Source: Convolutriloba macropyga
Taxonomy: Eukaryota
Direction of reading: 5' to 3'
Assembly: GCF_964194025.1 (NCBI RefSeq)
Contig: NC_134471.1
Location: forward strand, 64,480,001-64,544,000
Length of the DNA stretch: 64,000 bases
Positions 17,118-64,000 of this stretch are shown here, piece after piece; within the stretch, counting starts at the first letter, position 1; every line of letters starts with the position of its first letter. Position numbers and translations under genes: made by a program. The notes beneath the pieces are model-generated. The model was not told the origin of the DNA and searched no databases. It was given only the letters and a program-made list of their open reading frames with translations.

Positions 17118-17269
17118 GCCAATCAATCTCAAACTTATCAAATATATAGTTTATTTCGCTCTAGTTCCCCGCCCATTAGTGGTAGAATAGAAAAAAACGT
17201 CAATTAAGAGAAAGCCCCTCCCCTAAAAGCCTATTTGTTGTGGTAAACTTATTAAATAGTCTCCAAGTG

Positions 17270-39300: not shown

Positions 39301-40069
39301 TTTGGCAACATCTTGCATCATAAGCAGTTAGAAACTTGTTGAGTTAAAATTTTAGAAATATGCATACATACATTAAAGTGTGTTGATAATCTATTTTCAT
39401 TTTCTCATTTTCCTCAAATTCCGAAAGGTCTTCAGAAGTTAGTTAAAATGGTGACAACTGTTTTAAAACTGCTAAAAGGAGTCTGTTTCTTTATGATTTT
39501 TCAATGGAGGATTTCGATTTTGTGATCGATTTAACTTTGCATACCTGCTAATTCGTTCATACGTACAAAGATAGAATTATTGTTTTTATGCGGGACACTG
39601 AAAAATTGTAATTAAAAAACTGTACGATTTTAAAAAGTGGGATTCCGAGCTACTCTCGTTTTTCTAGGATTGTAACAAAAATTGCTCTTTGAAACTATAA
39701 GATATCTGGCGCATCAGTTAGCAAATTGATGATTTAAACCTGTCTGATCATTCCTGTTGACTAACATGGACAATTCATCTTGCTAATTGATTCCTATCAT
39801 TCCCTTGGTTGATTATAAATTAGCTTACTTTAATTTTCGCGAAAAAGAAAACTTGGACTAAGTAGTTCTAACCCAAAGTTTCACAATAACTGAACAAATT
39901 TACCTCAAATTTATTCCGAAATTGCAGAATCTTTAAACTTTGAATTCTCAAAACTAGGGCAACTGTGTGGGAAGAAAAAAGAAGAAACAGCGTGTTTTGA
40001 TGCTGACGACTCTTTATTTAATTTTTGGCGGCCAATATCAGAAAAAGATTGTTTTTAGAAAAAAGTATA

Positions 40070-40512
40070 TGTAATGTACCTACATAAACATTTGACATTT
40101 ATAATGCTATACGATTTTAACTTCTATCAAACTAGATTGATGTAAACTTGTAGTTAAATACCAAACATACACCTTTTTGATTTGAATAACGAAAGTGCTT
40201 AAACTTATAACTATTTAATGCCGTATTCATTCCATTATATTTAAATGTTATGTTAATTAAACTAAAGCAATAACGTTGATTATGTAAATTGTTGTTATTA
40301 TAAATTTCTTATATGTCAATGCCAATAATAATTGAAATATCTATTTCAAACTAGAGAGAGGAGATAAACATATTGAAAGCAGTCGGTTCTTTTAAATAGA
40401 TCAAGAAAATAAAACTGTCCGAACACGCTCCAAAATTCTTTAAACACCCACTCTGGTCTAAAAAAAAGATAGACTTGGCAAAATAAATTAGTAAGAGAGA
40501 ACATATATTACA
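40070..40512 (+). repeat. Gypsy 5' LTR (443 bp)
   Basis: TGTAAT...ATTACA terminal inverted repeat; about 40 substitutions and two 2-bp indels versus the 3' LTR (~91% identity, hand count). Confidence 0.96.
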
Positions 40513-40529
40513 TGCTGACAGGAGTGCTG
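40513..40529 (+). promoter_or_regulatory. Degenerate primer-binding site, probably tRNA-Leu
   Basis: TGCTGACAGGAGTG directly after the LTR; two mismatches to TGGTGTCAGGAGTG, the complement of a tRNA-Leu(CAG) 3' end. Confidence 0.6.
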
Positions 40530-40880
40530 ACAGTTTAAATATTCTCTAACTCTACTAAAGTGGAACTAAACTATTTGAAGTGCTGGAAACTAGATCTAGA
40601 CTATCTTCAGCGCTGAAGTTGCATCTGAAAGCATCAACAACAGAGTCAAAGAACAGAGACATCTCAATTTTGTAAGTCAAAAACTCAAACTCAAATAAAA
40701 GGCGCTTAATTTTATTTTACTGGCCAATTTCATGCTCTCCTCAATAATGAACCATTAGCTATACTCTTCGCTAATAAGTTACCCTTCCTAAATTCGCTTA
40801 CACAATAGTTGAAATCTATTCTCATCGCATATCACATGTGCTGTGCAGTAAATTAATACGTAAATTAAAACGAGCGATAA

Positions 40881-41955
40881 ATGGCCGCAAACGCATAGGT
40901 AATGATCAAGCCGTACAGCAAAACGGAAAATGAAAATTTCGGCGAATTTGAGCAGTTGTTTTGAGGAATGGTCGGAGTCGCCGATGTTGCAGCAGCACAG
41001 CAGCCAAATTTCCTACAACTCCATCTATGTGAAGCAGCCCTGCGTTTCTTTCAAACGTTACCCGCGGCAACAAGAGCGGACGTCGATCTTTGCTTAACTG
41101 CGCTTCGAGAACATTTTTGCAATGTCCAACTACAAGAAATCCACATTTTAAAACTCGAACAGCAGCGTTTTGATATAAAGAAGGATACTCCAGAAAATTT
41201 TTTAGTAACACTGCAGTCAAGAGCGCAACGGTCTTACCCGACGCCAAATTTGCCCGAAGTTGCACCTCTAAATTTGGCGGCAGCAGGAGCAGATGCAGGA
41301 CTTGAAGCAGCGCAACGAACGAGATTCGACAGAGAAATTGCAGCGCGAGACGAGCGATTACAACCAGCTAGAGTTTTCAGGACCGCACAAATAAAACGTT
41401 TTTTTATATGAGCTAAGCCCGGGTGGCTCAGGTCGAAAGTGATGGAACAACCAGCTGCAGCGACAGTAAACGACTTATGTACCGTTGCCCGACAAAAAAT
41501 GTCCATCAGAAAAATGTGCAGGACTGTAGATTACCCTGAAGATGGCCTGAACGCTATAAATAATACGGTATCTGACAACTTGATAAACGCACTTAGAAAA
41601 CTATCAGCAAATCAGGAAGCAATGGAAATACGACTACATAATATGGACGAGCGATTGAGAGAAGACAACAAAAAACAACAATCTAGCCAATAACAACAAA
41701 ATAATTCCAGTCATATCAGACACAAACAACACAACAGCCATATCAAACACAAAATCATACAAAGCACAACAACAACAACAACAAGGTCCAGTACAGGGCG
41801 AACCGAACAAGCTTTGTTTCCCAGTCACATAATCCACAAAAGTCCTCTGTTATATTTGTGGGTACCCAAAACACAAAGCAAATCAGTGTGCCATGAGAAA
41901 TACCAAAACCTCAAGAAGAAACGTATTTCCTTTCCAACACCAGCCTAAAAAGTAA
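40881..41955 (+). pseudogene. gag: Gypsy gag (stops and frameshifts)
   Basis: ATG 40881; FLQLHL..AALRFFQTL, L..HF, FLV.LQ..A...YP, Gln/Asn-rich tract, zinc knuckle CYICGYPKHKANQC (~41848-41889). Confidence 0.85.
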
Positions 41956-41989
41956 TTAAGCCACCCAGATCTAATGAACACCGCAAATC

Positions 41990-44900
41990 ATCGTCATTTT
42001 CAGAAAAACCAAAATACGAAGCGGAAAAGAATGTTCAACCAACCCTTCAATTATATATTATTAGCCAAAGATTAGCCTCAACTCTATCTTTCCTTAAAAT
42101 ATCAATTGACTCGAACTTAACAAGACGAGCCCCAATAGACACCGGCGCCTGCGCCAACGCCATTAACAAGCATTTATACAAAGAAATTCAAGCAGAAAAA
42201 TCCATGTGTATTCAAAAAATTGACAGACCAAGTTTAACAAAAGTTAAGATGGCATCGGAACAAGAAGTTGAATAATTGCAGAAATTTTACTGAATTTCCG
42301 AGTAGCACATCAAAGTTTTACTGAAAAATTTCTGGTGTTTCCTACAGTGAATCCACTCATTCTAGGCAATGATTTCTTCAAAAAACATGATACAGTAATC
42401 AAACCAGGTAAAAACCTAACCAATATAGCGGACTTAACAATACAAATTAGCGAAATAAAAACATTAAATGAACCAAGACGAAAAGTGAGGACAAAAAGAG
42501 TTGCAGCGTTCACAACAAAGAAAAACGCAATCCAACCAAACACTCAGATGATCATTGAAACCAAGTTAAAAACCACAGCAAATTTTGAAAAATGAAATGG
42601 AATAGTAATACTGAACGAGTATATAGAACAAAAACTAGACTTAGCAATAACTTCATCTTTAAGTACGATTCTGGATGACAATATCCTTTATTTCGCATTG
42701 ATTATTATAACTGATCAATCAATAACGTTACCTAAAGGAACCGAATTTGCTAAATTCTCATTCCTAACTCTGGAACAAGCCGAAACACTCCAACAAATCG
42801 ATCCAGAACTGATTGCCTTAGCGGAAAACCAAAGTGATGACATCGTCGAGATTAATCAACTTGTTCAAGACTTCCCATTTCACGGAAAGAGTCAACCACA
42901 GCGACAGCAACCAGAATATAGTAAACTATGGTTCCCAACAACGGAATCATGTTCAGACCCTGAAAACCTTCCACCACTTCAACGAGAAATTTTTGACCAA
43001 AAACTACGATTCCAAAATATAGAATGGCAGGATGCAAGAAAAAAAATACCACATACAAGAATTTCTTTAGCGTTTTCCATGGCAAAATTCAAAATTCTAA
43101 ATCTCGAAGAACGAAAAATTATAGAGGAACTTTTGCTTGAATTCCACGATATCTTCGCCAAACACCGTTTTGATGTCGGCTACAATACCGAACTTAAAAT
43201 ATAATTAACACCAGAACGCTCAAAACCACTCTATGTACAGGGACCACCAACACCAGTCCAACTTCGAGACGAAAACATATCGAACTTGCTCTTACGCATT
43301 ACTATGGACTGATTACCACACTTTCTCAATCGAAATATAGCAGCCGGTTTTTCGCCCATCGTAAACAATCAGGGAAACTGAGACTACTGGTCGATCTCCG
43401 AGGCGTGAATCATCTCCTGAAAAATGAATATATTAATGCTAACTTTCCAATTTCAATAAATGCTAACTTTCCAATTTCCGATAAAACTGATGCTACCAAC
43501 CACTTTGCAGGAAAAACTCTTTTCACAAAACTGGATTGCTCACAGGCCTACCACTGTGTTCAGATGGCGGATGACTTATCAACACAGCTTCTAGCATTCA
43601 ACTTTTCATCTCGTACATACGCGTACAATTGTTTGGCGCAAGGCCTTAGCAAATCGGTCACTGGATTCAGTGATTTCAATCGACACTATTTGGACCCATG
43701 CCTTGCAGCGGACATCTGCACGCAATTTATGGATGATATTGGATGCGGAGTTGAAACCTTTCAACAACTAGATACAACCCTACGGAAAAATTTTGAATGT
43801 ATTAGGAGACCAGGCTTGAAATTTTTGCCCGAGAATAGCGAAATAGCTACAAAATTCTTACAATTTTGGGCAACGTCCTCACTCCTAATGGCATATCACC
43901 TCAATCGGAAAAAATATAAAAATTTCTAGATAACTTAACTATGCCAAAAACAATTTAACAAGTTAAACGATTGATCGTATTTCTAAAGTTCTTCAGAAAT
44001 TATATTCCGAATCTCGCAGAAAACTTATGCCCTTTTACAAACTCCTACGTAAGGACTCACAAATCGAACCAGATGACATGCACTACAAAAATTGGGAAAT
44101 TTTGAAAAACGACCTTTTGGATGCAACAAAAATAATTCTGAGGCTTCCCACACCTGGAGTTCAATACGTCGTTTTGTGTGTCGCTATTTATTATTCAGCG
44201 GGATTTGTACTAATGATTGAAGATTATATCATTGATCAGAACAACAAAAAGAAAAAAGTATATGCCCCAGTGTCTTTCGGATCGCAGCTCTTCACTACTG
44301 CCCAACTTAAATTTTCAATTAATTATAAGAAATTCTTAGCCTTATATTACGCCCTCGATCAATTTGCACACTATCTCTGGGAAGCAACAAAACCAAATTT
44401 AATTCTAACAGACAATAGAAGCCTCACTCAATTTTTCATATCAAAGGTTATACCACCATCACTTTGGAACTTTTGGGATTGTGTTCTTTCATTCAACGTG
44501 ATTATTGCCCATATACCAGGAAAAGCAAATTACGCCGCAGACTTTTTGTCTCGCGTCCAAACGGACAAAACCGCTGGCTTTTACTTGAAAATTACTGAAA
44601 ATATTCCAAGAAAATATTGAAAGAAGATGAAGCGGACACGACCGCTCACACCTGACGTGAAAGCAAATTTCATTAGCGAAATGATGGAATCTTTTGAAAA
44701 AACCAAAGATCCACAACTAACAGAAAACCTGAAGAACCTTGGACTTTACGAAACATATCTGAAAATGCAGAAACAATCAGAAAACGAAATCACCGGTTTC
44801 CTCAAACTAGTGAGACCAACAGTAAATTCTGTCCTCTATGAAAATCCGTTAGATTTCTGAGAGGTATAAATGCAAAATGGATCCGATGAAACTCAAAACA

Positions 44901-46150
44901 GAACAACAAAAAGATGAGGATATACAAACTGCTATCCAGTGGAAGCGACAAGGAACCAAAGTTGACTTGAAATACGAACCAATTTCACGGAAAAATTTCA
45001 CAAACAATTGCGACTATTAATAGTTGAAGATGAAATACTTTATAGACTTTTCTATGATGATACAGGAAAGGTACAGTTAGTTCAGACAAAATTGCCCTCC
45101 AAAAAATCTCTGGAAGGAAGCATTATACAGAATACACAATTCAAAAACAGCTGGACACCTAGGAATTGACCGCACATTACAAGAATTCCGCCGCCGCTTC
45201 TACTTTCCTAACTTTACCGAACATTTTCTTGATCTTATCTAAAATTGCCTGACATGCCTTCAGATGAAAAACGTCAAAAGGAAACAGTTCAAATCCTCAC
45301 TGCAGCCGTTATCATCACTACAATCATTCCCCGGAGACTTATTTCGACCTTGTGGGAACTTTCAACTCACCAGTGTACAAATACGTGTTAAGCGGCATTG
45401 ATGTTTTCACGAAGTATCTTTTTGCAGTCTCCCTTACGAATGGAAGCGCCGTTACTGTAGCTTGTGGGCTCGTGAAGATTTTTTTCCAACACAGCTATTT
45501 GCCCGAAACTATTTTGATGGATCTAGGAACCACATTTACCTCTGATCTCGTGCACGAATTAGCCCAATTCCTCAAATTAAGCTAAAACACGCGTCACTAA
45601 AACACCCACAAACCATTGGCACAGTAGAGCAATTGTATAAACCTCTTAAAAAGATAATAAAACTTAATAGTAAAGATCAGTGGAACGACTGGCATAATTA
45701 CGTCCCATTGGCAGTTTTCATACATATTACATCATACCACTCTTCCATTGGATGTTGCCCAAGACTTCTGTTTCACGGACGGGAACCTACAAAACCCTTG
45801 GACCTTCGCTTCTTCAGAAAAGGAACGGCAGTAATAGAAGCGAATTCAGGCGATGTTATTGGACTTCAGGACGCAATGTTGAAAATATTTTCCGAAAACA
45901 AAGAACAACTTCTTGACGCATATCACCGCTATCGAAGCTATTACGATAAGAAAACTGGAGCAAAACCACTCAAGAATCATTCTTACTGTTTTTTCCTAAG
46001 TTCTCAACTAACAAGTCAGCAACAAATCATCAAAAAATCAGCTCAAACCTGGATTCCATTGTAAAAGGTTCAAATTATGCAGTAAGGAAAACAGGCACAA
46101 ACTTCACACAATGCGTCCACCGGATCAGACTAAGAGCCGTTAAACCCCCT
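41990..46150 (+). pseudogene. pol: Gypsy pol: protease, RT, RNase H, integrase (disrupted)
   Basis: IDTGAC (~42135), ILGNDF, KLRLLVDLR, KLDCSQAYH, AQGL, QFMDDI, RNase H (..YSAGFVL, LTDNRSL, HIPGKANYAADFLSR), IN HHCC (IHNSKTAGHLG..CLTC), IDVFTKY, DLGTTF. Confidence 0.95.
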
Positions 46151-46959
46151 CCGGATATTGTTGACATTGAAACTATTGGCCCAAACAAATTTCAACCGGA
46201 CCCAACTCGAAGAAACGATAGAAGTGAACCACAACTTTTTGACGACCATCTTCATAAATTACTGGAAAATAGACTCAGTTTATATACAAAAACCCTTAAA
46301 ACCTGCAAATAAATCACATGTCAGCATCACTCTACCAGTCGCGGGAGTACCCGGACCCTTTGCAGCCCCCGCACCAGAACCAGTGCCAGTGCCGCCTGAA
46401 AATTCATCCGGAATTTCCAATAATTCAACACCACAGATTTCTCCTGAGAATAGCAACCACAATTCTCCAGATCAAAGCGACGACGAAAAACAACTTCACA
46501 AAGAAAATCCGATACCAACGCAACTAGAACCCCTTCAACCAGATGTTGATACCAGTGTCGATATAGCCGATTTTACCCAAAATACTCCAAAACGAACTAG
46601 AATACCTAGGAAAGTACAATTTAATTCAAGAGTTGAAAGACGACATTACAAGCCGCGTAATGAATCTCCTGTTATTCATCGATCACGCCCAGCTGATGTC
46701 AACTTTACGCCTACACCAAACCAACAGAATGCAACATTAACAACAGAGAAATAAAAAAACGGCAAGCAATTCTCGATTCTTTTTTGAGAACACGATCTTC
46801 TAAAATACCAACTCGTGACACTAAACTGGACCAGGTGCAATCAAGTATCAGAAAACACCAGAATAGGAGCCCGGAAGGACCGCCAAACCAGAAACGTCAC
46901 ATAATAGAAAAAGAGAAGCCAAAAATCACGACATAAATTTAATCTATCACCAAAGTCAG

Positions 46960-47418
46960 GCAAATTTTTGTTTCTGGCAACATTTTTGCAAAATATCCGT
47001 CCTGTTGTACATTGCATATCAGCCGATGCTGCCATGAAAGCAGGATTAGCAGCTGCAATAGCCAATTGTTACGCTTTACTACGAAAAGTTGTGCAAAACC
47101 GTTCAAAAATCCGGACTGGTTCTGTTATTGTCTACATTGACGCGAATGAAAATCGCATTATCTTCAATTTAGTAACTCATATAAAAATATCATAATATAG
47201 CAAATCTCAATACTATGAAAAGCCCACTTATTACGCGCTATCAAAGGCACTTCATGGAATAAAAAAACCTCCTACTTCAATACGGTATAAACAACATTCT
47301 TTTGCCACAAATTGAATGTGAACTCGATAAATTGAAACAAGACACCGTCTATCGAATGCTACAAAGTGTATTTTCCGATGCTCCACTTACTGTTCACCAC
47401 AAATTTCATAATCAGTAA
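46960..47418 (+). pseudogene. TARG1/OARD1 (Poa1p-like) macrodomain at the end of the Gypsy pol region
   Basis: VVHCISADAAMKAGLAAAI...IFNLVT[24-nt insert]KSQYYEKPTYYALSKALHGIK/NLLLQYGINNILLPQIECELDKLKQDTVYRMLQSVF; parallels TARG1 motifs HCISED..MGAGIA, YLITK..KPTY..L..SL, MPRIGCGLD.L.W. Confidence 0.88.
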
Positions 47419-49970
47419 TGTCAAGACACCGATACTGTTACTCAACCAGACAAAAGAAATAGCGCTCCATCGACAAACTTGAGAAAATTTTGACAAAAAC
47501 GCAATAAATCGAAAATCATGCAAATTCGGAATTTTCACCGAAATTATTATAACTCGAGTTATATTCAACCCAAAACCGCGATAATAGGTCCAACCGATCA
47601 CCCATTATGCCAATGGATTTCATTGGCCGATTAGTAAATCTGAGGCAATATTTTTTGAGAAACTGAGAAGTTAAGAAAAATGCAAAATTTGGCTAATTCT
47701 CAAAATTGACAAAATATCAATAGGAAAATTACTATATTAAATTCGTCAAATCAAGCCCAAAATTGATCCAGGATCATAACTTCCATACCTATAATGGATG
47801 ACCAAAGCAACTTGGGCCAAATCAAATACTTTGGGAGATATCGGATTTTCAACTTTGGAAAAATCAGCCTCAAAAACTATCCGATCCGGGCTAAAATGTT
47901 GATAGCTACGTCAAAAATCACCCACCTATCAGCTATAGCAATGCCATAGCTAAATCTTGGATGAAAACGGCAGCTTAAAATGTGTTTATCTTTGAGAAAA
48001 ATTGATATTTATGCCAGAAAAAAGAGCCCAAATCTACCTCTCGGCCCTGACAAATATTCAAGTCTTCTAGTCAAAAAAAGTAACTTCAGACCGCATTTTA
48101 ACAGTCAGACCCTTTGGGATGTTAAACACTAAGACCGTGGTAGCAAAAAAGGCGTCAAAGACCATTTTTTCGAACTCTACAGACCTTAATCGATGGTGCA
48201 ACTTAAGCCCTCAAAAAAGGGCCCAAAATCATTGGAAAATAGCATATCTCGCAAAATAATTATGTCACGGATGCCAAAATTGTCAGGGCATCATCAATTA
48301 GTCTGTAGATGAGAACCAAAATTCAAATTTTGCGCTCTGACGCCTATAAGTTCCCTTAATGTGAAAACATTTTTTTTCACACTTTTTCAAAAAAATGTGA
48401 AAAAAATCAAAAATGACTTAACTCGCCCGCTACTTCGAAACTGGCCCTTTTTTTATTGCGGACCTTGGTGCACCTCAAGACCATTGTGCCCAATTACTTT
48501 CCAATCGCCCTACACTCGTTTTTCATCAGTTTCAGTGCAAGTACTGAGCAGTAACGTCCACTGCTCAGCAAGGCAAAGGGTCAACGCTGCATGGTGCCAC
48601 CCACTGCATGGTGCCCATAAATACAAAGTGTCGCCAAGACACTGGTTTACATGCATGGCCTTGCCTGATAACTTTGGCACTTGAGCAATCATCAACTTTG
48701 GGCATCTGGCAGTTCTTTTAGCATTTATTGCAACCTCACCAGGAGGAAGCACGACACAAATTTTCCTGCCCTGGCCGTGTAACGTGATAAAAGAGTCACA
48801 GGCATCCTCCCAATCATTATGCTACCTTACAAACAGGGGCCTTGGCTCAAAATAGGGGACCCAAAGGAGTAATCAGATAAAAATAAGCCCTCTGCGAGCT
48901 TATATTTCAAGTCAGATGTATACTTTTCTTTCAATTTACCATTAAAATACCCACTCCGACCAAAATAACCAGCTTTTTTCTGTTCCTCCGGCCAATTGAT
49001 CTTCTCCCAAACAGTGGAATACTTGGCGGCGTTGTAGATTGATCTCTAAAAGGAACATTGCTAGAATACAACTGCTGTATAATGTGACAAAACAACTCGC
49101 TGTGGATATCATCAACTTACGTCCAAACTGTAACCTTTATAAGCAACAACTTTCTCCTTTACCAAGAAAGGCACACCCTTCACAACAGACTCTAACTTCC
49201 CACTGTTAACATGCTTTAAATTACCTAGAATAACTTTTTCAATTCAAACATTTGATCACTCATTTTGACCTGGAAAAGAACTATTTTGTAACACCAAGCA
49301 AAAATTAAAACACATATAAACAGCTCATGCATAAACAGTTCACATATAATGTAACAATGCTCTAACACAACTGAAGGCGGTTCAGATGGTTAAATTGAAT
49401 CAAACACGGGCACTCACACAACACAGTACAAAAAGGATTAATAATACATTATTACAGCGTCAAAAAACTAAAGCACTCAACACTTAAAACACACTTAAAT
49501 AAACGTTTCTAACAAGTAAATGCCTACACTCTCGTTCTTGTTCTACTTCTAACTAAATTCTCCACACCTCTCTGACTAGCCACTACCGATTAAGTAATAA
49601 CTTCACCGCCATGAAGCGGGCAAGGAAGAAAATAACGAAAATGGCAAATGCCACAAACGAATGCAGGTCACAATTTGACTCTTCTGGCAGTCTTTCTGCC
49701 TGCTCAGTACCACGCAGCCGTGTTCTAGAAAAGGTCCAAGTACCCGTTGTGGGAAAAAAGGTCCCAATTTCACAACATTGAAACACATGTTGAAACGAAA
49801 GTTTCCGAAAGTCATGTTGAAACACATTTTGATCTGAAGTGCTCAAACTCACTCAATCTATTGAGCTTTACATTGATCAGACACATAAATCAGATTAAAA
49901 CCATTGACTCCAAATTCCTCTTGTAAATATATCTAAACCTAGCAAAGTTGAATTGTCTTTTCAGTTTTAG

Positions 49971-52264
49971 GAAGTACACTCAAGCAAAAACAGCTGCAAC
50001 TTCGATAACGCACTCACTAACAATTATCAAAATTTACAAGCCAGTGGCAAACGTCATACTCATCGCCATCTTTTTACAAATCTGCAATGCTTTCAATCAA
50101 ACAGAAAATTCAATTAGAATAATGTTATCTAAATTAGCCGAAATGTGGAAAGCTCCTTCTCTGTTCTGTCCATTAAACTTCTCCTCTAATTTCAACGGCT
50201 CTGCTACACCATTCAATATCAATTAGATGCTTGACAAACTAGTTAATGAAACTGATTCCGCTAAAATTGAAATCAAAAATCTACAACACTATTCAATATC
50301 AATTAGATGCTTAACAAACTAGTTAATGAAACTGATTCCGCTAAAATTGAAATTAAAAATCTACAACACTACAACAAAAAATGTCAACACTTTTGACAGA
50401 AAAGGACTGGGAGCTGCAGTTCTTGCCGGAATTGGCCTTTTCGGTACTGGAGTCTTAGTTGGAAATATGGAAGAATGTGGATTAATGTGAAAATTTGGCG
50501 GCTGCCAGAAGCAAGGACAGAAAAATTCAGAAAACATCAACCGCCTCCACCAATACACATCGATGTTAACGAATTATGTTGTGGAACTTGAAGATGAGAC
50601 AAAGAGGAAATTTTCATGATTTCCAACGAGCTGAGTGAAATAAAAAAACTCCAAGAAGAAATGGTACGGATCCAAACAGAAAATTGGAAAATAATCGAAG
50701 CCCAATTCGAAGTTTTTGAACACAATTTTCATATCTTACAAGACTGCACCCAAATATTGTTCTCAAACCAGCAATTAAACTTTAATTTTGACTCTGTGGC
50801 TTCTCTTCTTGCGCTACTTTTTGCCGATGTTAAAAATTATCGTTCAGCACTTTATGCCTATAAGATAAAACTAATTAATTCGGCATCGATTCTTTTAAAC
50901 AGAAGTTTACCAATGTCACTGGTCCCAAGAGAAACGTTGATTGCAATTTTGGGATCTGTTCATAGAAGCCAGAGGACAGCAAGAGACCGTCTTACGCTGG
51001 CGTTACATATGACAGATCTTCTATCTTATTATGATGCAAAATTAGTTAGAGAGGTTGCGACAAGTGAAGAAGGTATATTGCTCACTCTAGCAATTCCAAT
51101 GTCATCAAGACAGACAGCATTCAATATATATGAAGCGCATCGTATACCCATGCCCCAAGCTGACTCATCTGAAGCATTGATGTGGGTTACTGAAGGCCCC
51201 TACCTTGCAATCTCAGAAGATTCTGTGGAAAGTGCTATTCTTTCTCAAGAAAAATTTGACAATCGTCTTGGCGCAGCTCAATACAAAATATGTCATGAAA
51301 GTCTTGCAACACAATTAGGATCATCATCTTGCCTTGGCGCCCTTTACTTTCATAATATTCAGCCCTAGCCGTTTGTGACACCGAGAGATACTTATTACCA
51401 AGTCCGGAAAAGGCCACGAACTTGGGATATGGAATTTGGCTCAATACTTCAGCCAGTTAATCGTTTATTCTTCGAGAATACAATATAGATAACGACAAAA
51501 TTCCCGGGAAAAAAAGAAAACCCTGTATGTAAATCTGCTTAATTACACTTGAATGTGGCTGCCAGCTAATCAGTAAAAATGTTAAGATAAGACCGGATCT
51601 CCAGAGTTGTGACAAAATACCAGCGATGTGCATTGGAGTTAAACTCCCAGACCCTCTTGAATATTTGATAGCCAAACTGCTGTCAATAGAAGATCTTCCT
51701 TTCTTTGAATCCAAAACTGATGCAAACACCGCCCTTCTAAGAGAAGTTAGAACACAATTGATTTATAGTCCACAAATCACTCAAATGAAACATCTTAATA
51801 CACTAGGAAAATCAATCGCTCATCGAATGAAATTACTGAAGTCAACACCCGCCCATCAACTCGAGGAATACGTACCGCTCAAATTATCTCTAATGCTAAC
51901 AGTAATAGTGTTTATTGGAAATCTTTTCTTGCATATTCTTGCTATGTATCTCCATCACCGTTTTGCCATATTTAAACGCCTCACACCTTCCTTCCTGAAT
52001 TTTTACAACAACAAAGTTCCGTTAAAACCTGTGATGACAGTCGAAAATGAATATGCAAGCCATCTCAAAAGACAACACATAAATAACATGACTGTCATTA
52101 CAAAACAACAATTACCTCAACTACAACCTGCTCTCAGTCGAAAACCTTCAAAAATGTCTATGTATAACCAACCAACAACTACGTTCAGTCGAAGACCATC
52201 AAATACATCTATCAATACACACAACGATGATACGGTTACAATCAACGACCAAAGTGAATTCTAG
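49971..52264 (+). pseudogene. env: env-like class I fusion glycoprotein (baculovirus F / paramyxovirus F-type), disrupted
   Basis: Signal peptide VANVILIAIFLQICNA, N-glycosylation sequons, RK|GLGAAVLAGIGLFGTGVLVG fusion-peptide-like segment (50404-50463), heptad repeats, Cys-rich beta region, TM helix LSLMLTVIVFIGNLFLHILAMYL, S/T-rich cytoplasmic tail; located between pol and the 3' LTR. Confidence 0.85.
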
Positions 52265-52389
52265 ACAATTGCAGATTAACATTTTCAGGGCGGATTAAAA
52301 ACTATATAAACTTTAAATCACAAATCACTCATCCTATGATATGATTTATTTATTAAGTTTTTCAAAAAAATTTCAAAAAAATTGGGTAG

Positions 52390-52832
52390 TGTAATGTACC
52401 TACATAAAAATGTGACCTCTATAATGCTATACGATTTTAACCTCTATTAAAATAGATTGATGTAACCTTGTAGTTAAAAACCAAACATACGCCTTTATGA
52501 TTTGAATTACGAAAGTGCTTAAACTTATAACTATTTAATGCCGCATTCATTCCAACATATTTAATCTTTATGTTAATTAAACTAGAGCAATAACTTTGAT
52601 TATGTAAATGGTCGTTATTATAAATTTCTTATAAGTCAATGCCAATAATAAATGAAATAGCTATATTAAACTAGAGAGAGAGGAGAAATACATATTGAAA
52701 GCAGCCGATTCTTTTAAATTGATCAAGAAAATGAAACTGTCCGAACAAGCTCCGAAGTTCTAAAAACACCCACTTTGGTCTAAAAAAAATAGACGTGGCA
52801 AAATAAATTAGTAAGAGAGAACATATATTACA
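52390..52832 (+). repeat. Gypsy 3' LTR (443 bp)
   Basis: Matches the 5' LTR; preceded by purine-rich AAAAAAATTGGGTAG (PPT-like). Confidence 0.96.
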
Positions 52833-55139
52833 GTATATCATCAGAGAAAGAAATCCCAACAAGAACACTGGTCCCTTTAAAGTAACCGCCTGAAACACTT
52901 GACGTTTATTGCAAAGCAAATTCTTAATAACTGTTTTTTCCTGAAAAGAGCTGAAATAACATCAATCTATGAAGAAGATGGCATCATGGACCCTGTAAAC
53001 TATCATCTATCTCGATAATTAAATCGTTTTCCAAAATGTTACAAAAAAAATTGCACATTTAAATCATAAATTATACTGTGAGTAAAAAATACAGTCGCCG
53101 CCTCATTTCGGATATCAATATACTGTGTCAGCACAAGAAGCTATTCTATTTTGCTTTGCTTCAGTCCAACAAAAAATTGATAATAGTAATTTTGTTGATG
53201 CCGTTGTGATCAATTTATCTAAAACTTTTGACTCACTACCATACTAATACCTATTGAGAAAATTACAATTTCTAAACATTTCAACTTCTGCATTGCATGT
53301 CATACGATGTTTTCCTTTGAATCACATACAACAGGTTGGAGTTTTTTGAGTTGTGTCAAATTGGATTGAATTAAAACAAGCGGTTCCACTGGTATTTGTT
53401 TCAATAGGTTAAAATTGAATGCCAAAAAACTGAGTTTATTACAATCTCGCACAAAAATAATAACAGGCTCAACAATTTTTAAATTGATTTAAATTCAAAC
53501 GAAAAATAAAACAGTGAAATAAGAGGTTCTCGGAATATTGTTTAACGGTAGAAACAAAAGTTCCTGAAATTTCGTTTTCCAAATCGTTTTCTTGATTGTG
53601 GAAATTAGAGCTTTGAAGTTCTTAAAGGTTTTTTTATCGTTTCGGTGACGTTTTGAAACAGTGCAACGTTTTGATTCTCGAGTTAAAAGAGGATGGGTTA
53701 CTATCCTACCAAGTGCCATATCAGAGCAAAGAAAATCGTTTTGAAAAAGCACAGCAAATTTTATTTTTCTTCGAAGTGGAAAGAGTTGACGGCTGTAGAT
53801 TTTTTAGTAGTTTGGTTGGTTTTGATAATGCAGAAAAGAAATTTATAGAAAGCTCAATAAAACTGCAGAAATTGTTTCTAAAAAGCTGGCCGTTCATGCC
53901 AATGTTTCAATTCAAAATGTTTAAAAATCGTTTACTTCAAAGTTTCATCATAGGTTTACCTTCTTAGCTCTAACACCTAATGTTGAATACCTGATAAAAG
54001 AATGTGAGAAATTGATCGACGGTGAGTTTTGCCTAATCTAATACAAGATCCCGCCCAAAAAAACTGGAATACTTATTCGTTGCCAAAAAGGGAGGTTGGC
54101 CTCAACGTCCTTAAACATTAAGCCCGTTTTAGGGAACATGATCAATCAGTTCAACTGTCATCTCCTTTTTCCATATCTCAGCCCTAAACTAATCATACAA
54201 CAAATCATACTTCAAACAAAAAAGGAGAATGAGCTGAAAATTAATTCGAAAAAGATGAGAATTAAAAGGAATTGAATAAGAACGAGAATCGCTCACTTGA
54301 GTTAGTTAGTGAAAAGGGAGCACCCAGTTGGTTGAATGCTGTGACATCAGTCTGACCTAAGGAATAGCGGGCTTCGTGATGGCATTGCCCTTCGCTGTGG
54401 TTGGAACCAAGTAAAAATGCCATCACTATCTGCATGCAATGAAAACGTCAATATCGCACATTTTCTAAACTGGGATTCCTTTCCATTTTTTAGTCATTTG
54501 TGTCATGATGCCGAGATTGAACCAAATCCTCAGCCCTTGCAAGGGGAATCCTTTGCTCTTTAATCAACGACAGCTGATGATGATGCAAGATTAAGGCCAA
54601 CGGAATTTGGGAACCGATGAGCAAAAAACAGATTTTGATTTGGAAACTACCAACAAATATGAACAAGGAATAATTGATTTTAAGAAAGCAAATTTTTGTC
54701 CACTTGTCTTCGCTTGCATATGCGGATCTGGCCCATCAGCGTCAAAAACGCTGAAACAACTGGCATCAAAGCTCTCTGCGCTGAACGGGAGCTGATGTTG
54801 AAGAAGGGAAGATGCTAGCTGGACTCACCTACTCTCGCCACTAGTTTTCTAATGCTGTCTGCGTTCTGTTTTACTTTTCTTCAGCTGATAATTTAAAATT
54901 TTTACGGTAACTTACATTTGGTAACGTGTCTCTACATACGATAAAAATAAGCGTACATACGGCAACATGTTTTGATATCTATTTATAATTTCAGTTTTTC
55001 TAAAATTCCAACAATTTGTCACATTGAAGTTTGTTTTAATGCTACAAAATTGTGCAAGCCGCAAGTGCTGATTGCAAGTGCTGCAAGTGCTGCAAGTGCT
55101 GATTCGAATTTATTTGGCCAACATGCATTTTTTTATTAA

Positions 55140-57150
55140 TAATTGAATGATAATTCCTGGCTCCTGTACCTGACTCACGTATTCAGTTGTCATTTGTGTC
55201 TACTAATATGTAGAGATTCTGTGGTTCAAAAGTGTTTTGGTAACCTGGCACTGATCTAATATCTCACCATTAAGGGCTGCTCAAGCCCCACAGTTGGTCC
55301 AATTAATGTTGGTCCATCAGTGCATCAACTTTTCGATGCTCCGAATTTCTCTGATTCAGATATTGACAATTTTGGCCAACACAGGTGGAGTTGCATCCAC
55401 AATAACTGTGTTCGTAAACAACATGAAGTTTCAGACTGCTATGAAAACTTGATTTCAGGGACGGTAGGCATATTGGTAGCTTTCGCGTGGCAAAGATGGT
55501 TCCCATTTCGCACGTTTTTTCAATATCCGCTCAAATTACAGGCTGATGCTACTTCGGTACTGCCAGAAAAAAAAATAGTTCAACATCTTTCGCTCATGGT
55601 TGGGGTCTCCATTGTTGTATTTTCTCGCCGCCATTCTTCAGTTGAGGTTTACTTAAAACATTTTGTAAAGAATCAATGACAATTTTAGATGTCCCACGTT
55701 CAAGGTAATGATTTTTTTGCCCTATTTTTTTTGTTTTCTATGAGAACTTTGTGTGCGCTTCAACAAATGCGTTGATCAGCTCCTTCTACGATATTTTTTT
55801 TTGTTGGATAGGTGCACAGCTACGGAATTTCAAGAAAATCCCGTATCGGTAGGTTTCGTGTACCACTCGTAGTTAATCATTTTACAGCTATTTACATTAT
55901 TGATAATGTCTAAAAATGCAAAATTGTGTTTTTTTCTCCTGTCCCCTCAAATGTGAATTTCATTTTCTTGGAGGGTTGTTGAATTTTCTGAGCAATTTGT
56001 CTGGTTCATCATTTACAGTAGAAATTAAATTGTCTGTACATCTTTTGAATAATTGTCTTTTAGTCACCGGTTCACTAGCTATTCTCCTGTTTTTCATGCA
56101 ATTAGAGCAATACCACAGCATGTCTTTCATTTTGGCGTGAACTTACCGGTCAACAAAATCTGGTTTTTTGCATGGAAAACATTCTCGCATTTTCCACATT
56201 CGAATCATTTTCTTCTAAAAGTACATTTACGTTTGCATTGAGTACCGACCTGACGATCTTTTTTAAAGAGTTTAGTGGCAATATGTTTTGTTGATTTTAT
56301 CTGATGTTTGAATATAAATCCTGCTATTTCTTTTTTCCCGCGTCTCTAAAGTTTTTGTATGTTCCGACAATTCCATTTTTCAGTTTTTCGTTGAACATGT
56401 TCCAAACAACACAGTGAGAGAGTGGCGTCGTTTTGCCCAAGTTTCACCTGAATTACGGACAAAAAAATTAGTAATTATCAAATTGGACTCGTTTGCACTT
56501 CCCTATGCTCTTGCCTGACGGTAGCGTTTACCCAACTTCGATTTACGCTTTCGCTTTTTCAAAAACGACGTAAGCTAATTCGTTACCGCCAGATGATACC
56601 CAGCGTCTTCAATTCCTGTGCCGTTTCTTAATGAAATTCACCGTGTTGCTTCAAACACCAGTTATCACACTGTTCGCGTCTGGAAATATTGTGTTTTTTT
56701 ACCTAAATTACTAGAATACCTGTTTTCAGTACGCTTTTCACAATATCTGTGACTCGTTTTGCTGCAGGCACTCCACAAGGTTGTCCGGGTCACAATGATT
56801 GAAATCTTTGGATCTGTGTTCTCTGATTGCATTGTTAATTGTATCGTGTCACGGTACTAGATCTGTCCGATTTCCAAGGTTTCTGCTATTTTCTATCTAA
56901 AATCTGTCATTTTTCAGGATATTTCTTGAACTCCTGTTGAGAAACAGGCCGGCAAATGAAGCGACAGTTCTTTGTCTTGTATATCACGTTGTGCAATGCC
57001 AGAGAAAAAGATGATGCCGCTAATATATGCTTGGTTGCTCTGAAAATCTGTTATTTTGAAAAAATATCCTAAATATAACCCTGCTGATAAGGTAACAGTT
57101 TCACTTGTTGCCTGTTTGTATAGCTAAAACGGGTCGAAAACTGATATAAA
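55140..57150 (-). mobile_element. Decayed Penelope-like element, copy 2
   Basis: LKLHVVYEHSYCGCNSTCVGQNCQYLNQRNSEH matches GIY-YIG consensus VVY..C..C..YVGQT.R.L..R..EH; FKRCTDN RT motif; collinear with copy 1. Confidence 0.78.
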
Positions 57151-57499
57151 TTTGTGGAATTGCTCGAATGTTTTGGCAATATCTTGCATCATAAGCAGTT
57201 AGGAACTTGTTGAGTTAAAAATTTACAAATATGCATACATACACTAACGTGTCTTGATAATCTATTTCCATTTTCTCATTTTCCTCAATTTCCAAAAGGT
57301 CTTCAGAAGTGAGTTAAAATGTTGAAAGGTGTTTTTAAACTGCTAAAATGAGTCTTTTTCTTTATGATTTTTCAATTGAGGATTTCGATATTGTGATCGA
57401 TTTGACTTTGCGCACCTGCTAATTTGCTAATTCGTTCGTACGTTCTAGGATGGATTTATTGCTTTCATGCGGGACAATGGTAAAATTTTATTTGAAAAT

Positions 57500-59600
57500 C
57501 TGTACAAGTTTTAAAAGTGGGATTCCGAGCTACTCTCTGTTGTGTAAGATTGTAAAAAAATTTGCTCTTTGAAACTATGGGATTTCTGGCGCATCAGTTG
57601 GCACATTGATGTTTTTCTTGCACGCTGAAAATTTTTGAACATTTGTGGTAACATCAAGCGAAATCTGGGTACTGAAATTGAAACAAGATTTTTCAAAGTG
57701 TCGGAAAAATATAAACCAAATTTACCCGTTGCTCATATTATCTTTCAAAACGCATCTAGAAAGCGTTTGCAACTGATGTCTTTTGTTAATGACAGGGGAA
57801 AAGGCTATTGTGGGTATATCAGAAATATGATTGACAGCAGATGATAAAACTTCCTTATGGAATGTAGCTCCCAGTGCGATAGAAGTGCAATAAACTGTAA
57901 AAAGAGTGGGGTACTGCTTTTTGTGCCCTTGAAATTCCCTCCATAAGAACGTAAGGATTTAAACCTGTCTGATCATTCCTGTTGACTAACATGGACAATT
58001 CATCTTGCTAATTGATTCCTATCATTCCCTTGGTTGATTATAAATTAGCTTACTTTAATTTTCGCGAAAAAGAAAACTTGGACTCAGTAGTTCTAACCAA
58101 AAGTTTCACAATAACTGAACAAATTTACCTCAAATTTATTCCGAAATTGCAGAATCTTTAAACTTTGAATTCTCAAAACTAGGGCAGCTCTGTGGTAAGA
58201 AAAAAAGAAGAAACAGCCTGTTTTGATTCCGGCGAATCTTTATTTAATTTTTGGCGGCCAATATCGGAAAAAGATGTATTTAGAAAAAGGTGTATCATCA
58301 AAGAAACAAATCCCAACAAGCCCACTGGTCCCTGTAAAGTAACCGCTTGAACCACCTGACGTTTATTGCAAATCAATTTCTTAATAACTGTGTTTCACCT
58401 GAAAAGAGCAGACATAACATCAATCTATAAAAAAGATGACATCATGGACCATGTAAACTATCATCTATCTTCATAAATAAATTGTTTTCCACGATCTTAG
58501 AAAAAAACTTGCACAATTAAATCACAAGTTATACTGAAAGTAGAATTTATAGTCGCCGCTTCAGTTCGGATATCAACATATTGTAACAGCACAAGATGCT
58601 ATTCTTTTTTGTTTTGCATCAGTCCAACATAAAATTGATAATAGTAATATTGTTGATGCCGTTGTGATCGATTTATCTAAAACTTTTGACTCACTATCAT
58701 ACCAATTCCGATTGAGAAAATAACATTCTCTAAACATTTCAACTTCTGCATTACATGTCATAATGTTTTCTTGTGAATCGCATGCAACATGTTTGAGTTA
58801 TTTGAGTTGTGTCAAATTGGATTGAACTAAAGCAAGCGGTTCCACTGTTATTTGTTTCACTAGGTTGAAATTGAATGCGAAAAAACTAATTTTATTACAA
58901 TCTCGCACAAAAAAACAGGCTCAACAATTCTTAGACTGTAATTCTAGGGACAGCAATAGAAAAAATTTAAACCAATGTAAATGTTCAGGTGACAAAAAGA
59001 GACAATAAATATCAAAAACATGGCTGTTGGTACCAAAGCTATTGAAATTGAACAACATAGTTTCCCGTAACCGTGTTATTCTTTGCATTTCCACTCATTT
59101 GTCATTAGTCACTTACAGTAGTCTGATTTATGTCTCTTTCAAATGAGTTCAACTTAGTGCTTTTATGAGGAAACAGATGAAATGGGCTTTGAAGTGTGTA
59201 TTTTTTGTTCTTGTAACAAGTCGTCAAATGAATCATGAAAGCGTAGAAATGTAAATGGCATCAAGAACTAATTAAGTTGAAATCCTTAACGTACTATTTT
59301 CAAAACAATAGAATTATGGAAAGAGCTGTTCAACAACAGCTTAAAATACTTACTGCCAGCTATAGGAATAACATTCGCGCGAACCAAATAGTTTATGTAG
59401 GTAATCTTCCATCTGTTTAATCCTCTTCTAAATCATGCCTTAGTCAGGTATCGTTGAAGTGAAACTCACTCTCATTGCACCTGTAAGACACAAAATTGAT
59501 TGAAAAACATTTTTGATATCGGAGTAAAATCATTTGTTATCAAACAAGCTACCACGTGGCGTGACTTCCGTCTCAAATGACCTGTGAACAGCTATATTTA
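57500..59600 (+). mobile_element. Decayed, internally deleted CR1/L2-like LINE ORF2 (its paralogue is the Gypsy target site)
   Basis: DR..KKSGVLLFV (APE), D.VNYHL (NYRP), AVVIDLSKTFDSL, KQAVP, HSFVISHLQ. Confidence 0.7.
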
Positions 59601-59949: not shown

Positions 59950-62900
59950 AAACAAGACACTTTCACAAATTAACAACTGACTAAGAACTCCCACAGGAGT
60001 TTTTTTGCTTTAATATACGTAGCTTGTTTAAAATAGAAACGAGACAAATATTTGACACTTTTTAACTATTCATAAATTTAACATTTGCGTCTCAGAAACT
60101 TGACGTAGCAGTTTTACAGCTCACAGCAGAACAGTAATTTATGTAAAACGTACTCCCAATTGTGAGTTATTTATACTCAACTGGGAAACAATTGGATCAG
60201 CTACTTTAAGCTTGATATCCCTGAAAAAAATTTTGGTAGTTTTACAGTATCTTCCTCCGTCCAGTAGTATATACGCGTATAGCCATAACCAGCGATTTGA
60301 TTAATTTTTAAAAACAATTAATTAAAGCCAAAAAACTAGCGGATGAAATCATAATTTATAGAGATTTTAATTTCCAATCATCAACTAGTCAAGCTTGTCA
60401 TCAATCATCGAAAGAAAACCTGTTCCAAAACATACTCTAGGCAAATAATTTGCGGCAATGTTTATTTTTTCCAATTGCAGCAACACAATTTTCAGACTTG
60501 ATCCTGGTAGCAAAAACGTTTATGTTATTAATCTCAGAAAATAAATCAAATTTAAGGTTTTACCCATATTTCAATTATTTTCACGTGGTTTTGAAGCTAA
60601 TGTTAAAAAGATTTGCCTAACGAAGTGAAATGCTTCTCTGCAAGAATAAAAGTTTTTGCAAGTTTAATATGACTAGCTCTCTCAAATGTTAATAACTAAA
60701 AAGATTAACATTTATTGCTGGTCAAATCTAAATAAACCCCTCGTGAATGGGTACAAGAGCCAGGAAGATAGCCTCTAGGCTTCAATTTCCAAGACAACAG
60801 TTCTTGGAGCATCTAAGAACATCTTGGGGTGTCTCAAGAAACTTTGCAAAGAGTTTTTCCGTTCGCGTCTCTGAAACGTTTCTACGTCTCAAAGTAGAAC
60901 ATTGATTTATCTAAAACGTACTCTTGACTGTGAGGGTTTTTTACTCAAATTGGAAACAAATGGATCAGCTAATATAAGCTTGGTATCCCTGGGAAAACTT
61001 CGGTAGTTGCACTGTATCTTCCTCCGTCCAGCATCAAATACGTGTAAAGACAAAACCCACAATTTGATCAACTATTTAACAGCTTTAAAGCCAAAGAAAT
61101 AGCCGCTGAAATCATAAATTATAGAAATTTTAATTTCCAATCATCAACTAGTCAAGCTTGTCATCAATCATCGAATTGAAAACCTGTTCCAAAACACACT
61201 CTAGGCAAACAAATTGCGCAATGTTTATATTTTCCAATTGCAGTAACAGAAGTTATAGACTTGGTCCTTGCAGCAAGAATGTTTAGGTTATTAATCTCAG
61301 AAAATTAATCGAATTTCAGGTTTTACCCATATTTCAATTAATTTTCACGTGGTTTTGAAGCTAATGTTAAAATTATTTGCCTAACGAAGCGAACTGCATC
61401 TGTGCAGGAATATAGGTTTCCGCAAAGTTGAATATGACTAGCTCTCTTAAATGTTAATAACTAACAAGTTTAGCAGCTATTGCAGGTCAAATCCAAATAA
61501 ATCACTCGAGATTAGGCACAGGTAGTAGGAAGACAGCCTGGAGGCTCGTATTTCCGTTACAACAACTCGTGGAGCAAATAAGAGCGTCTATGGGTGTCTC
61601 AAGGAGCTTTGCTAAGAATTTTGACGTTTGCGTCTCTGAAACGTCACTTAGCAATCATTTTGTGGAAGCAATTATTTTTTTTAAATCATACTTCAGTTTT
61701 TGCTCCAACAGAAAATTTTTGACAATTTCTGCAATTCACATCGGAAAATTGGTTTATGTAAAACGTACTCGTGACTGTGAGAGTTTTACACTCAATTGGG
61801 AAACAAAAGCAACAACTAATATAAGCTTGGTATGCCTGGGAAAATTTTTGGAGTTTTAATTGTATCTTCCTCCGTGCAATAGTAAATATGCGATTAGCCA
61901 TAAAGAACAAATTGATAATGTTTTGACATAATTAGGGCCAAAAGACTAGCCGAGGAAATCATAATTTATGGAGATTTTAATGTTCAATCGTCGACTGGCC
62001 AAGCTTGTCATCAATCATCAAAATAAAATCCCGTTCTCACACATACTCGAGGCAAATAATTTGCGGCAAACTGTAAATTTTTCACTATCAGCAGCAGGAG
62101 TTTGACACTTGATCCTGGCAGCGAAAATGTTTCGTTTAATAATCTCAAAAAATGACACGAACTTCAGATTTAAACCATTTTTCAATTATTTTTACGAGCC
62201 TTTGAAGTTTACTGTTTACATTTTCTGGTTAACCAAAAAACTCCCTCTAAGCAAAAATATCAGATTTTGCAAAGGCGATTATAATTAGCACTCTCAAATG
62301 TTGTTACGTAACAAGATTAGCAGCTATTGCTGCTCAAATTCAAATAAACCCCGCGAGAAAAGGCACAGAGACTTGGAAGATAACCTCGAGGCTTGTATTT
62401 CCAAGACAACAATTCGTAGAGCATCTAAGAGCAACTATGAGTGTCTCAAGAAACCTTCACATAGTTTTAACGCTTGCGTCACTGAAACGTGACTGAGCAA
62501 TAATTTCGTTGAAGCAGATATCATTTTAAAATTATATTTCAGTTTTTGCTCCAACAGAAAACTTTTGACAATTTCTGCAGCTCTCATCGGAACATTGATT
62601 TATGTAGAACGTGCTCTCAATTGTGAGAGTTATACACTCAATTGGGAAACAAATGCAACAATGTAGTAATAGCTTGTTATGCCTGGGAAAAGTTTTGTTG
62701 GTTTAATTGTATCTTCCTCCGCGCAATAGCAAATACGCGAATAGCCAGCCATAACGAACAAATTGATAATGTTTTAACATAATTAAAGCCAAAAGACTAA
62801 CCGAGGAAATCATAACTTATGGAGATTTTAATGTTCAATCATCGACTGGTCAAGCTTGTCATCAATCAACAAATTGAATTCCCGTTCTCACACATACTCG

Positions 62901-63850: not shown

Positions 63851-64000
63851 GATTAATTGTGTCTATTAAATGTTTTAAAATCAAAGTTTGTGTTTTTGAT
63901 GTACCTACAAATCGCGGTTCAAGGCAATAATTGTAACCCTTTCAATTTATGACAGTGCTTGCGTTGTTTTAAGCAGCTTAGTTATGATACAACTTGACAA

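What the first reader, a model, noticed from the sequence alone, without database searches (positions are those of the whole stretch)
49971..52264. Class I fusion (F-type) env with full architecture but a non-canonical cleavage site
Signal peptide, Gly/Ala-rich fusion peptide, HR1-like coiled coil (ISNELSEIKKLQEEMVRIQTENWKIIEAQFEVF), Cys-rich core, TM helix and a long S/T-rich tail can all be read across 4-5 lesions. The fusion peptide lies early in the protein, as in baculovirus and paramyxovirus F. It is preceded by TFDRK rather than an R-x-K/R-R furin site, which is either decay or use of another protease. Such genes are also candidate sources of domesticated fusogens.
Basis: partly seen in the sequence, partly recalled or inferred. 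Interest (0 to 1): 0.72.

Follow-up and report, generated by a model that had tools for sequence, protein, structure and literature searches.

The report
Broken retrotransposon envelope gene; site deleted
This is a decayed envelope gene, predicted to be of the viral F-fusion type, in an old jumping gene of what is likely an acoel worm; its odd cleavage site is only a deletion scar, because uninterrupted relatives in the same genome carry the ordinary furin-type motif.

Summary
The stretch is the env gene of a 12.8-kb Ty3/gypsy LTR element (40070-52832; LTRs 90% identical, 5-bp target duplication). The F-type reading holds: a model of a natural, uninterrupted paralog matches paramyxovirus/pneumovirus F and baculovirus F structures. 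The headline does not hold. 'TFDRK' is an out-of-frame reading of linker DNA that abuts the fusion peptide across a deletion of about 32 bases. Three close copies keep those bases, and 65 of 75 aligned relatives have R-x-K/R-R there (74 of 75 have at least R-x-x-R). The copy carries about ten lesions and lacks part of F2, so the architecture is not complete. No domesticated solo env was found: all 20 sampled copies with long env frames have RT within 10 kb upstream. Env-carrying gypsy elements with F-type env are already described across animals (PMC13524379), though acoels were not surveyed there. Two side findings: one env-only LTR-leader-env-LTR insertion joins exactly at this element's GT and AG sites, indirect evidence that env is spliced; and Pol ends in a TARG1-like macrodomain. 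Verdict: new member of a known kind, anomaly explained by decay.

The parts
40070..40512 (+). 5' LTR (TG...CA), preceded by a 5-base target-site duplication at 40065-40069
   Evidence: 90.1% identical to 52390-52832 over 445 bases; same 5 bases on both flanks
40513..40671 (+). Degenerate primer-binding site and leader; inferred first exon of the env mRNA
   Evidence: PBS-like start compared with three young copies; leader shared with the env-only copy up to 40671
40672..40677 (+). Inferred splice donor (GT-type; the only GTRAG in 388 bases of leader)
40906..41948 (+). gag region, broken
   Evidence: ORF pieces; the 40965-41408 piece matches the first ORF of paralogs at 49-71%; no Pfam family for the paralog's first ORF
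41949..46754 (+). pol region, broken: protease-like motif, RT (43198-43929), RNase H (43967-44620), integrase core (45268-45585)
   Evidence: Pfam RVT_1, RT_RNaseH and rve above cut-off; protease motif read from the sequence, not scanned to a family
46908..47400 (+). Remnant of a TARG1/OARD1-like macrodomain at the end of pol
   Evidence: Window piece hits the pol end of 13 of 20 paralogs; paralog L047 has Pfam Macro above cut-off and matches human TARG1 at E 1e-18; the end coordinate is approximate
49950..49964 (+). Inferred splice acceptor (pyrimidine run and CAG); env exon would start at 49965
   Evidence: Homology to the env-only copy starts at 49965
50044..50091 (+). Signal-peptide-like hydrophobic stretch, no in-frame Met
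50101..50371 (+). Remaining F2-like part, with an 80-base tandem duplication and stops at 50224 and 50304
50389..50406 (+). 'TFDRK' and the deletion junction that removed the basic cleavage motif and the first fusion-peptide codons
   Evidence: other copies' contigs part from the window at 50407 in all four runs (loose ends)
50407..50463 (+). Remainder of the fusion peptide
   Evidence: matches paralog residues from 142 on
50500..50750 (+).
   Evidence: paralog model helices 177-192 and 216-251; 13 of 21 a/d positions hydrophobic; bounds approximate
50751..51877 (+). Beta-rich, Cys-containing head domains and membrane-proximal helices; frame change near 51360, stops at 51458 and 51530
51878..51952 (+). 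Transmembrane helix
51953..52264 (+). Cytoplasmic tail (103 aa) and stop; tails differ widely among paralogs
52390..52832 (+). 3' LTR, followed by the target-site duplication at 52833-52837

Best explanation
The stretch is the dead env gene of an old Ty3/gypsy LTR element, whose family encodes a protein predicted to be an F-type class I fusogen that is likely cut by furin, and 'TFDRK' is the junction of a deletion that removed the basic motif in this copy. Shown: element anatomy, lesions, deletion, the basic motif in relatives, conservation of env among subfamilies. Inferred for uninterrupted family members: env is made from a spliced RNA that joins the leader to an acceptor just ahead of env; the protein enters the secretory path, is cut after R-x-K/R-R into a short N-terminal subunit and a membrane-anchored subunit, probably held by a disulfide between the invariant Cys of F2 and the Cys behind HRA; the freed hydrophobic N-terminus inserts into a target membrane and HRA and the membrane-proximal helices refold to pull the membranes together. 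By analogy with Drosophila gypsy this would move particles between cells, for example from soma to germ line; that step is untested.
For: LTR pair, target duplication and empty site; RT, RNase H, integrase. About 31-32 bases at the site are present in all 3 close copies aligned and absent here; one of them reads a canonical motif, two are one residue off. 12 of 12 genome copies with frames over 760 aa among 30 loci read R-x-K/R-R; 65 of 75 aligned rows spanning the site do, 9 more have R-x-x-R, 1 has neither; 42 of 55 distant representatives do, 5 more have R-x-x-R. Model pLDDT 73, pTM 0.60; 213 PDB matches at E<=0.001, all listed rows paramyxovirus or pneumovirus F, best E 1.2e-8; baculovirus F E 4.9e-16; Atlas top clusters Fusion_gly and Baculo_F at 0.91-0.93. 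Ten Cys conserved in 97-100% of rows. Between subfamilies synonymous sites are saturated while dN is 0.20-0.26; within one pair dS 0.168, dN 0.009. Env-only insertion joined at GT and AG.
Against: No Pfam fusion family for the window pieces or 5 paralogs. Foldseek TM-scores against solved F are low (0.20-0.30 by query, rmsd 13-25 A), and by VIA-align F chains (Z 7.0-7.8) tie with coronavirus spike and helical bundles. The cleavage loop and fusion peptide (130-199) have pLDDT under 50. 8 of 55 distant representatives lack R-x-x-R. The splice inference rests on one independent insertion; two diverged full-length leaders lack the GT at the window's donor position. One very recent pair (L023/L025) shows pN 0.005 against pS 0.002.
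Confidence: 0.9

Rival explanations
1. This subfamily had switched to another protease that cuts after a mono- or dibasic site, and TFDRK is its real site.
For: RK does precede a hydrophobic stretch in one reading frame; another close copy (L034) also shows this peptide in one frame; a minority of relatives have non-canonical sites.
Against: In L034 that reading is not in the fusion-peptide frame and a basic motif follows it; all 3 close copies keep the bases missing here; the deletion also takes the first fusion-peptide codons; the gene has five stops.
Confidence: 0.02
2. The gene is, or gave rise to, a domesticated host fusogen or restriction factor that lost its cleavage site, as reported for Drosophila Iris.
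For: Iris lacks the cleavage site (PMC1262188, abstract read). An env-only LTR element exists in this genome. Only 148 of 1831 candidates were scored, so the genome is not exhausted.
Against: The window copy has about ten lesions and lies between two LTRs with gag and pol. 20 of 20 sampled long-frame env copies have RT upstream; the one with inverted RT has a 99% sister copy with its own pol. The env-only copy is decayed.
Confidence: 0.03
3. The protein is a membrane glycoprotein of another fold that resembles F only through long helices.
For: Low TM-scores; middling Z values shared with helical bundles; profile search of solved structures gave only weak hits, led by influenza HA2 at E 0.007.
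Against: Alignments to RSV, hMPV and PIV F cover 295-387 residues including the beta domains; Baculo_F scores above cut-off in 4 homologues over the beta-rich core; order of signal, F2, basic motif, hydrophobic peptide, helices and TM is that of F.
Confidence: 0.05

Closest known systems
F-type env 'ancient errantiviruses' (env-carrying Ty3/gypsy elements across metazoans; PMC13524379: abstract, part 1 of sections 5 and 6, keyword passages and a term search of 7 supplements read)
   Same: LTR-gag-pol-env order; F-like ectodomain between signal peptide and TM; conserved furin site and fusion peptide; multi-copy, recently inserted members.
   Different: Host is likely an acoel, a group absent from that paper's list of surveyed taxa and from its text and supplements. 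Pol ends in a TARG1-like macrodomain ('macro' 0 hits in the text). A long non-coding spacer separates pol and env. Placement in their Pol tree was not tested.
Drosophila gypsy/ZAM errantiviruses (Metaviridae; PMC4276936, passages read)
   Same: env related to baculovirus F, furin site before the fusion peptide, env from a spliced RNA lacking gag and pol.
   Different: Sequence too distant for Pfam Gypsy or Baculo_F hits on this genome's copies scanned; infectivity has evidence for gypsy and none here.
Baculovirus F (PF12259) and paramyxovirus/pneumovirus F (PF00523)
   Same: Predicted fold, early fusion peptide behind a basic motif, two-chain layout.
   Different: 9-14% identity; longer protein (760-840 aa with long variable tails); encoded by a retrotransposon.
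Lokiretroviruses (PMC9040795, passages read)
   Same: Retroelement env similar to Mononegavirales fusion proteins.
   Different: Reported in vertebrates only, with a dual RNase H; a second RNase H was not looked for here beyond Pfam, which gave one RT_RNaseH region.
Iris, domesticated F-type env of Drosophila (PMC1262188, abstract read)
   Same: F-type env lacking a cleavage site.
   Different: Iris is an intact, expressed host gene; this copy is a broken gene inside an LTR element.

Membership tests
Ty3/gypsy LTR retrotransposon | Paired LTRs with TG...CA ends and a short target-site duplication | tested here: met
Ty3/gypsy LTR retrotransposon | pol order protease, RT, RNase H, integrase | tested here: met
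   protease by motif only
Ty3/gypsy LTR retrotransposon | RT groups with Ty3/gypsy in a tree | not tested
   no reference RT set was fetched
Ty3/gypsy LTR retrotransposon | tRNA primer-binding site behind the 5' LTR | tested here: inconclusive
   TGG-initial site in three young copies, degenerate in the window; the tRNA was not identified (a Leu match is recalled, not tested)
Errantivirus-like element (gag-pol-env, PMC13524379) | Third ORF after pol with signal peptide, ectodomain and TM | tested here: met
   uninterrupted in paralogs; broken in the window
Errantivirus-like element (gag-pol-env, PMC13524379) | env expressed from a spliced RNA | tested here: inconclusive
   one genomic env-only insertion joined at GT and AG; no RNA data
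Errantivirus-like element (gag-pol-env, PMC13524379) | 'Ancient' group: RNase H plus mini-domain bridge, Pol tree position | not tested
   bridge region not folded, no tree
F-type class I viral fusion protein | Basic cleavage motif directly before a hydrophobic fusion peptide (family) | tested here: met
   65 of 75 canonical, 74 of 75 R-x-x-R
F-type class I viral fusion protein | Same feature in the window's own copy | tested here: not met
   removed by deletion; the copy is a pseudogene of the family, not a working member
F-type class I viral fusion protein | F fold: HRA helices plus beta-rich head domains | tested here: met
   Foldseek on a paralog model; VIA-align alone inconclusive
F-type class I viral fusion protein | Trimer and six-helix bundle | not tested
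F-type class I viral fusion protein | Membrane fusion activity | not testable with these tools
   needs bench work
Domesticated env (Iris, syncytin-like) | Uninterrupted frame outside a retroelement context | tested here: not met
   window copy broken and inside LTRs; 20 of 20 sampled long-frame copies near RT
Domesticated env (Iris, syncytin-like) | Syntenic orthologs under selection and host expression | not testable with these tools
   no relative genomes held for G000

The most novel reading that the evidence does not exclude
Acoel worms host a large, still-active lineage of enveloped gypsy-type retroviruses not covered by the published survey: furin-cut F-type Env made from a spliced RNA that is itself occasionally reverse-transcribed and integrated as a compact env-only element (a ready route to a domesticated fusogen), with a TARG1-like macrodomain fused behind integrase to strip ADP-ribose marks laid down by host defence.
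Probability: 0.25. Interest if true: 0.6.

Novelty: new member of a known kind. Interest (0 to 1): 0.3.

Why it matters
The flagged anomaly does not matter: it is decay. The family has modest value. It likely extends F-type env-carrying gypsy elements to Xenacoelomorpha, a deep bilaterian branch missing from the survey in PMC13524379, which bears on how old the env-pol pairing is. The env-only insertion gives DNA-level evidence that a non-insect element splices env as Drosophila gypsy does. The Pol-terminal TARG1-like domain suggests a testable link between ADP-ribosylation and retroelement control.

Tried and rejected
Pfam on 12 window pieces and 5 paralog env frames: no fusion family. phmmer of one paralog against solved structures: only a chance helical hit; profile search: weak HA2 and F0 hits, E>=0.007, not used as proof. 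VIA-align wide search: inconclusive. RNA evidence: no RNA holder listed; the four runs behave like DNA, come from at most 2 samples of 1 study, and showed no leader-env joint on L042. Whether a contig bridges the window's own deletion junction could not be read from the cut table. Trimer or six-helix-bundle prediction: tool not available. Search for further env-only copies: 0 of 60 leader loci from two large subfamilies had env within 1.5 kb downstream (58 had gag; 30 of 40 listed matches per search were fetched). The second env-only copy (L064) is a segmental duplicate of the first (shared flanks, 94% over 6 kb), so it counts once. L024 as a solo env: rejected. Five of 20 further env loci had no pol within 10 kb: one is a tandem array derived from a full element; four (L034, L035, L039, L020) gave no leader match upstream with four reference leaders and were not followed further. 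Donor conservation: GTRAG at +340-350 in 26 of 30 leaders of one subfamily, none of that motif in 30 of another (GTATG at +310 in 16), absent at the window's position in two diverged leaders. Earlier findings: none on this genome or sequence. Literature: searches (acoel elements; macrodomain in LTR elements; retrocopied spliced env) listed no paper on these points in acoels; I saw listings only, apart from passages of PMC4977317 (macro-domain ORFs in fish ERVs) and PMC4695847 (nothing relevant). The library lacks most subscription journals; figure supplements of PMC13524379 could not be seen.

Full report
Observation. They are real. The middle piece found 149 matches in the own genome (148 of 1831 candidates scored), many with open frames of 760-840 aa. 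Against one natural uninterrupted copy (L002) the window matches residues 59-120, 92-120 again, 142-210, 208-458 and 461-718 at 38-67% identity. Residues about 21-58 and 121-141 are missing. I count about ten lesions: five stops, two frame changes, an indel pair, an 80-base duplication and two deletions. So the architecture is not complete.

Context. The gene is the third ORF of a 12.8-kb element: LTRs at 40070-40512 and 52390-52832 (90.1% identical), the same five bases on both flanks, and an unoccupied copy of the insertion site at 57956-58933. RT, RNase H and integrase lie upstream in Ty3/gypsy order. An LTR divergence of about 0.11 per site marks an old insertion, whereas three other elements have LTR pairs 97.5-100% identical, so the family has moved recently. 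A neighbouring host gene is closest to a protein named from Symsagittifera roscoffensis (84%, against 73% or less for other named animals), so the host is likely an acoel worm; this rests on one gene.

The cleavage site. A DNA search with 50290-50700 found the closest copies. Three span the site, and all three hold about 31-32 bases that the window lacks near 50405/50406. Those bases encode a basic motif and the start of the hydrophobic peptide: canonical in L033, one residue off in L032 and L034 (L032 and L033 descend from one insertion). In L033 the F2 helix, linker, motif and fusion peptide run in one frame, and the window bases read as TFDRK fall in another frame. Contigs of other copies part from the window at 50407 and at 50106 in all four public runs, the two deletion points. 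Across the family, 12 of 12 frames over 760 aa among 30 loci have R-x-K/R-R. In an alignment of 6 such frames and 80 of the 120 listed homologues, 75 rows span the site: 65 canonical, 9 R-x-x-R only, 1 neither. Among 146 more distant representatives, 55 span it: 42, 5 and 8. The non-canonical site is therefore a deletion scar.

The fold. A model of the natural L002 protein (679 residues, 86-row alignment) has mean pLDDT 73 and pTM 0.60; the cleavage loop and fusion peptide are poorly predicted. Foldseek gave 213 PDB matches at E<=0.001, with every listed row a paramyxovirus or pneumovirus F (best Nipah F, E 1.2e-8), though TM-scores are only 0.20-0.30. Among predicted viral structures the best hits were an uncharacterised abalone herpesvirus protein (3.5e-19), glycoproteins of chu-like viruses and baculovirus F (4.9e-16). 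VIA-align placed NDV, RSV, PIV and hMPV F at Z 7.0-7.8 with 295-387 aligned residues, tied with coronavirus spikes and helical bundles, so it is not decisive alone. Language-model features pointed to Fusion_gly and Baculo_F clusters. Pfam Baculo_F passes its cut-off in 2 of 15 and 2 of 20 homologues but not in window pieces or 5 paralogs. Ten cysteines are conserved in 97-100% of rows. Synonymous sites are saturated between subfamilies while dN stays at 0.20-0.26; one closer pair has dS 0.168 and dN 0.009, and one very recent pair shows no such signal. The env has been kept under selection as part of the element. No trimer model was obtained.

How it most likely works. For uninterrupted members (inferred from established F biology): signal peptide, secretory path, furin-type cut, a short N-terminal subunit probably tied by a disulfide from C81 to C255 (L002 numbering, by analogy with paramyxovirus F, recalled), insertion of the freed hydrophobic end, and refolding of HRA with the membrane-proximal helices. 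Spread between cells, as for Drosophila gypsy (PMC4276936, passages), is an analogy only. The window's copy makes nothing functional.

Splicing. The closest relative turned out to be a 3.46-kb element, G000:C3:14323316-14326772: LTR, leader, env, LTR, with its own 5-base target duplication and no gag or pol. Its leader follows the window to 40671 and continues at window 49965 with no gap. The window has GTAAGT at 40672, the only GTRAG in 388 bases of leader, and a pyrimidine run ending in CAG at 49964; a rough chance figure for both ends is 6e-5 (computed after seeing the junction, and the junction lies in a T run). The simplest reading is an integrated copy of the spliced env RNA. It is one event (the second copy is a segmental duplicate), it is decayed, and 0 of 60 leaders in two large subfamilies lead into env. 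Donor motifs are only partly conserved.

Domestication. All 20 sampled copies with long env frames have RT and RNase H within 10 kb upstream, 19 on the same strand; the exception has a 99% sister with its own pol. Of 20 further loci 15 have pol; the other five are one tandem array and four broken or partial copies. No domesticated env was found, in a sample that is not a census.

Macrodomain. The piece at 46908-47195 hits the pol end of 13 of 20 paralogs. In L047 it is in frame behind integrase, passes the Pfam Macro cut-off and matches human TARG1/OARD1 at E 1e-18; the Lys and Asp motifs that I recall as catalytic appear to be kept. Macro-domain ORFs are reported in fish ERVs (PMC4977317, passage). 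Its role here is unknown; removing ADP-ribose marks is my guess.

Comparison and verdict. PMC13524379 describes 1512 env-carrying Ty3/gypsy elements across animals, with F-type Env, conserved furin site and fusion peptide. This element works like those and meets the anatomy tests; tree placement was not tested. Acoels are not in that paper's taxon list, text or seven supplements. The finding is a new member of a known kind, and its flagged anomaly is decay. Interest 0.3, carried by the likely new host group, the env-only insertion and the macrodomain.

Noticed in passing
G000:C3:14323316-14326772 (L062/L063) and its duplicate near C3:14405000 (L064/L065): Env-only LTR-leader-env-LTR element with a 5-base target duplication, joined at the window's GT and AG sites; likely an integrated copy of the spliced env RNA.
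   Followed up: yes
window 46908-47400; L047:3715-4170 (-): TARG1/OARD1-like macrodomain at the C-terminus of Pol in 13 of 20 sampled elements.
   Followed up: partly
window 47400-49960; L056, L057, L061: Long spacer without long ORFs between pol and env: about 2.6 kb here, about 6 kb in the 765-aa subfamily.
   Followed up: no
G000:C9:16392932-16400048 (L075): Tandem env units with a 3182-base period, 99.9% identical, derived from a full element; real array or assembly artefact not tested.
   Followed up: partly
BFVD entry A0A145VUZ2: Best structural match is an uncharacterised abalone herpesvirus protein, which would be an F-like protein in a herpesvirus.
   Followed up: no
window 18383-23865 (-): Long ORF pieces of a second LTR-type element that look like BEL/Pao by recalled motifs; not scanned.
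   Followed up: no
window 13541-14374 (-) and 15213-17150 (-): Host genes: HSDL2-like short-chain dehydrogenase and a B-box zinc-finger protein.
   Followed up: partly
window 25400-36800 and 60100-64000: Two arrays of diverged direct repeats, with spacings of about 2-3 kb and about 760-850 bases.
   Followed up: no
window 37043-40070, 52833-53481 and 54942-58933: The element sits in one unit of a local duplication; the other unit shows the empty site.
   Followed up: yes
L042:1640-1725, L047: gag and pol overlap in different frames with an A-rich run near the gag stop, suggesting ribosomal frameshifting.
   Followed up: no
window 1-6000: Base skews like those of the gypsy element (A-rich, C over G); possibly another retroelement.
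   Followed up: no
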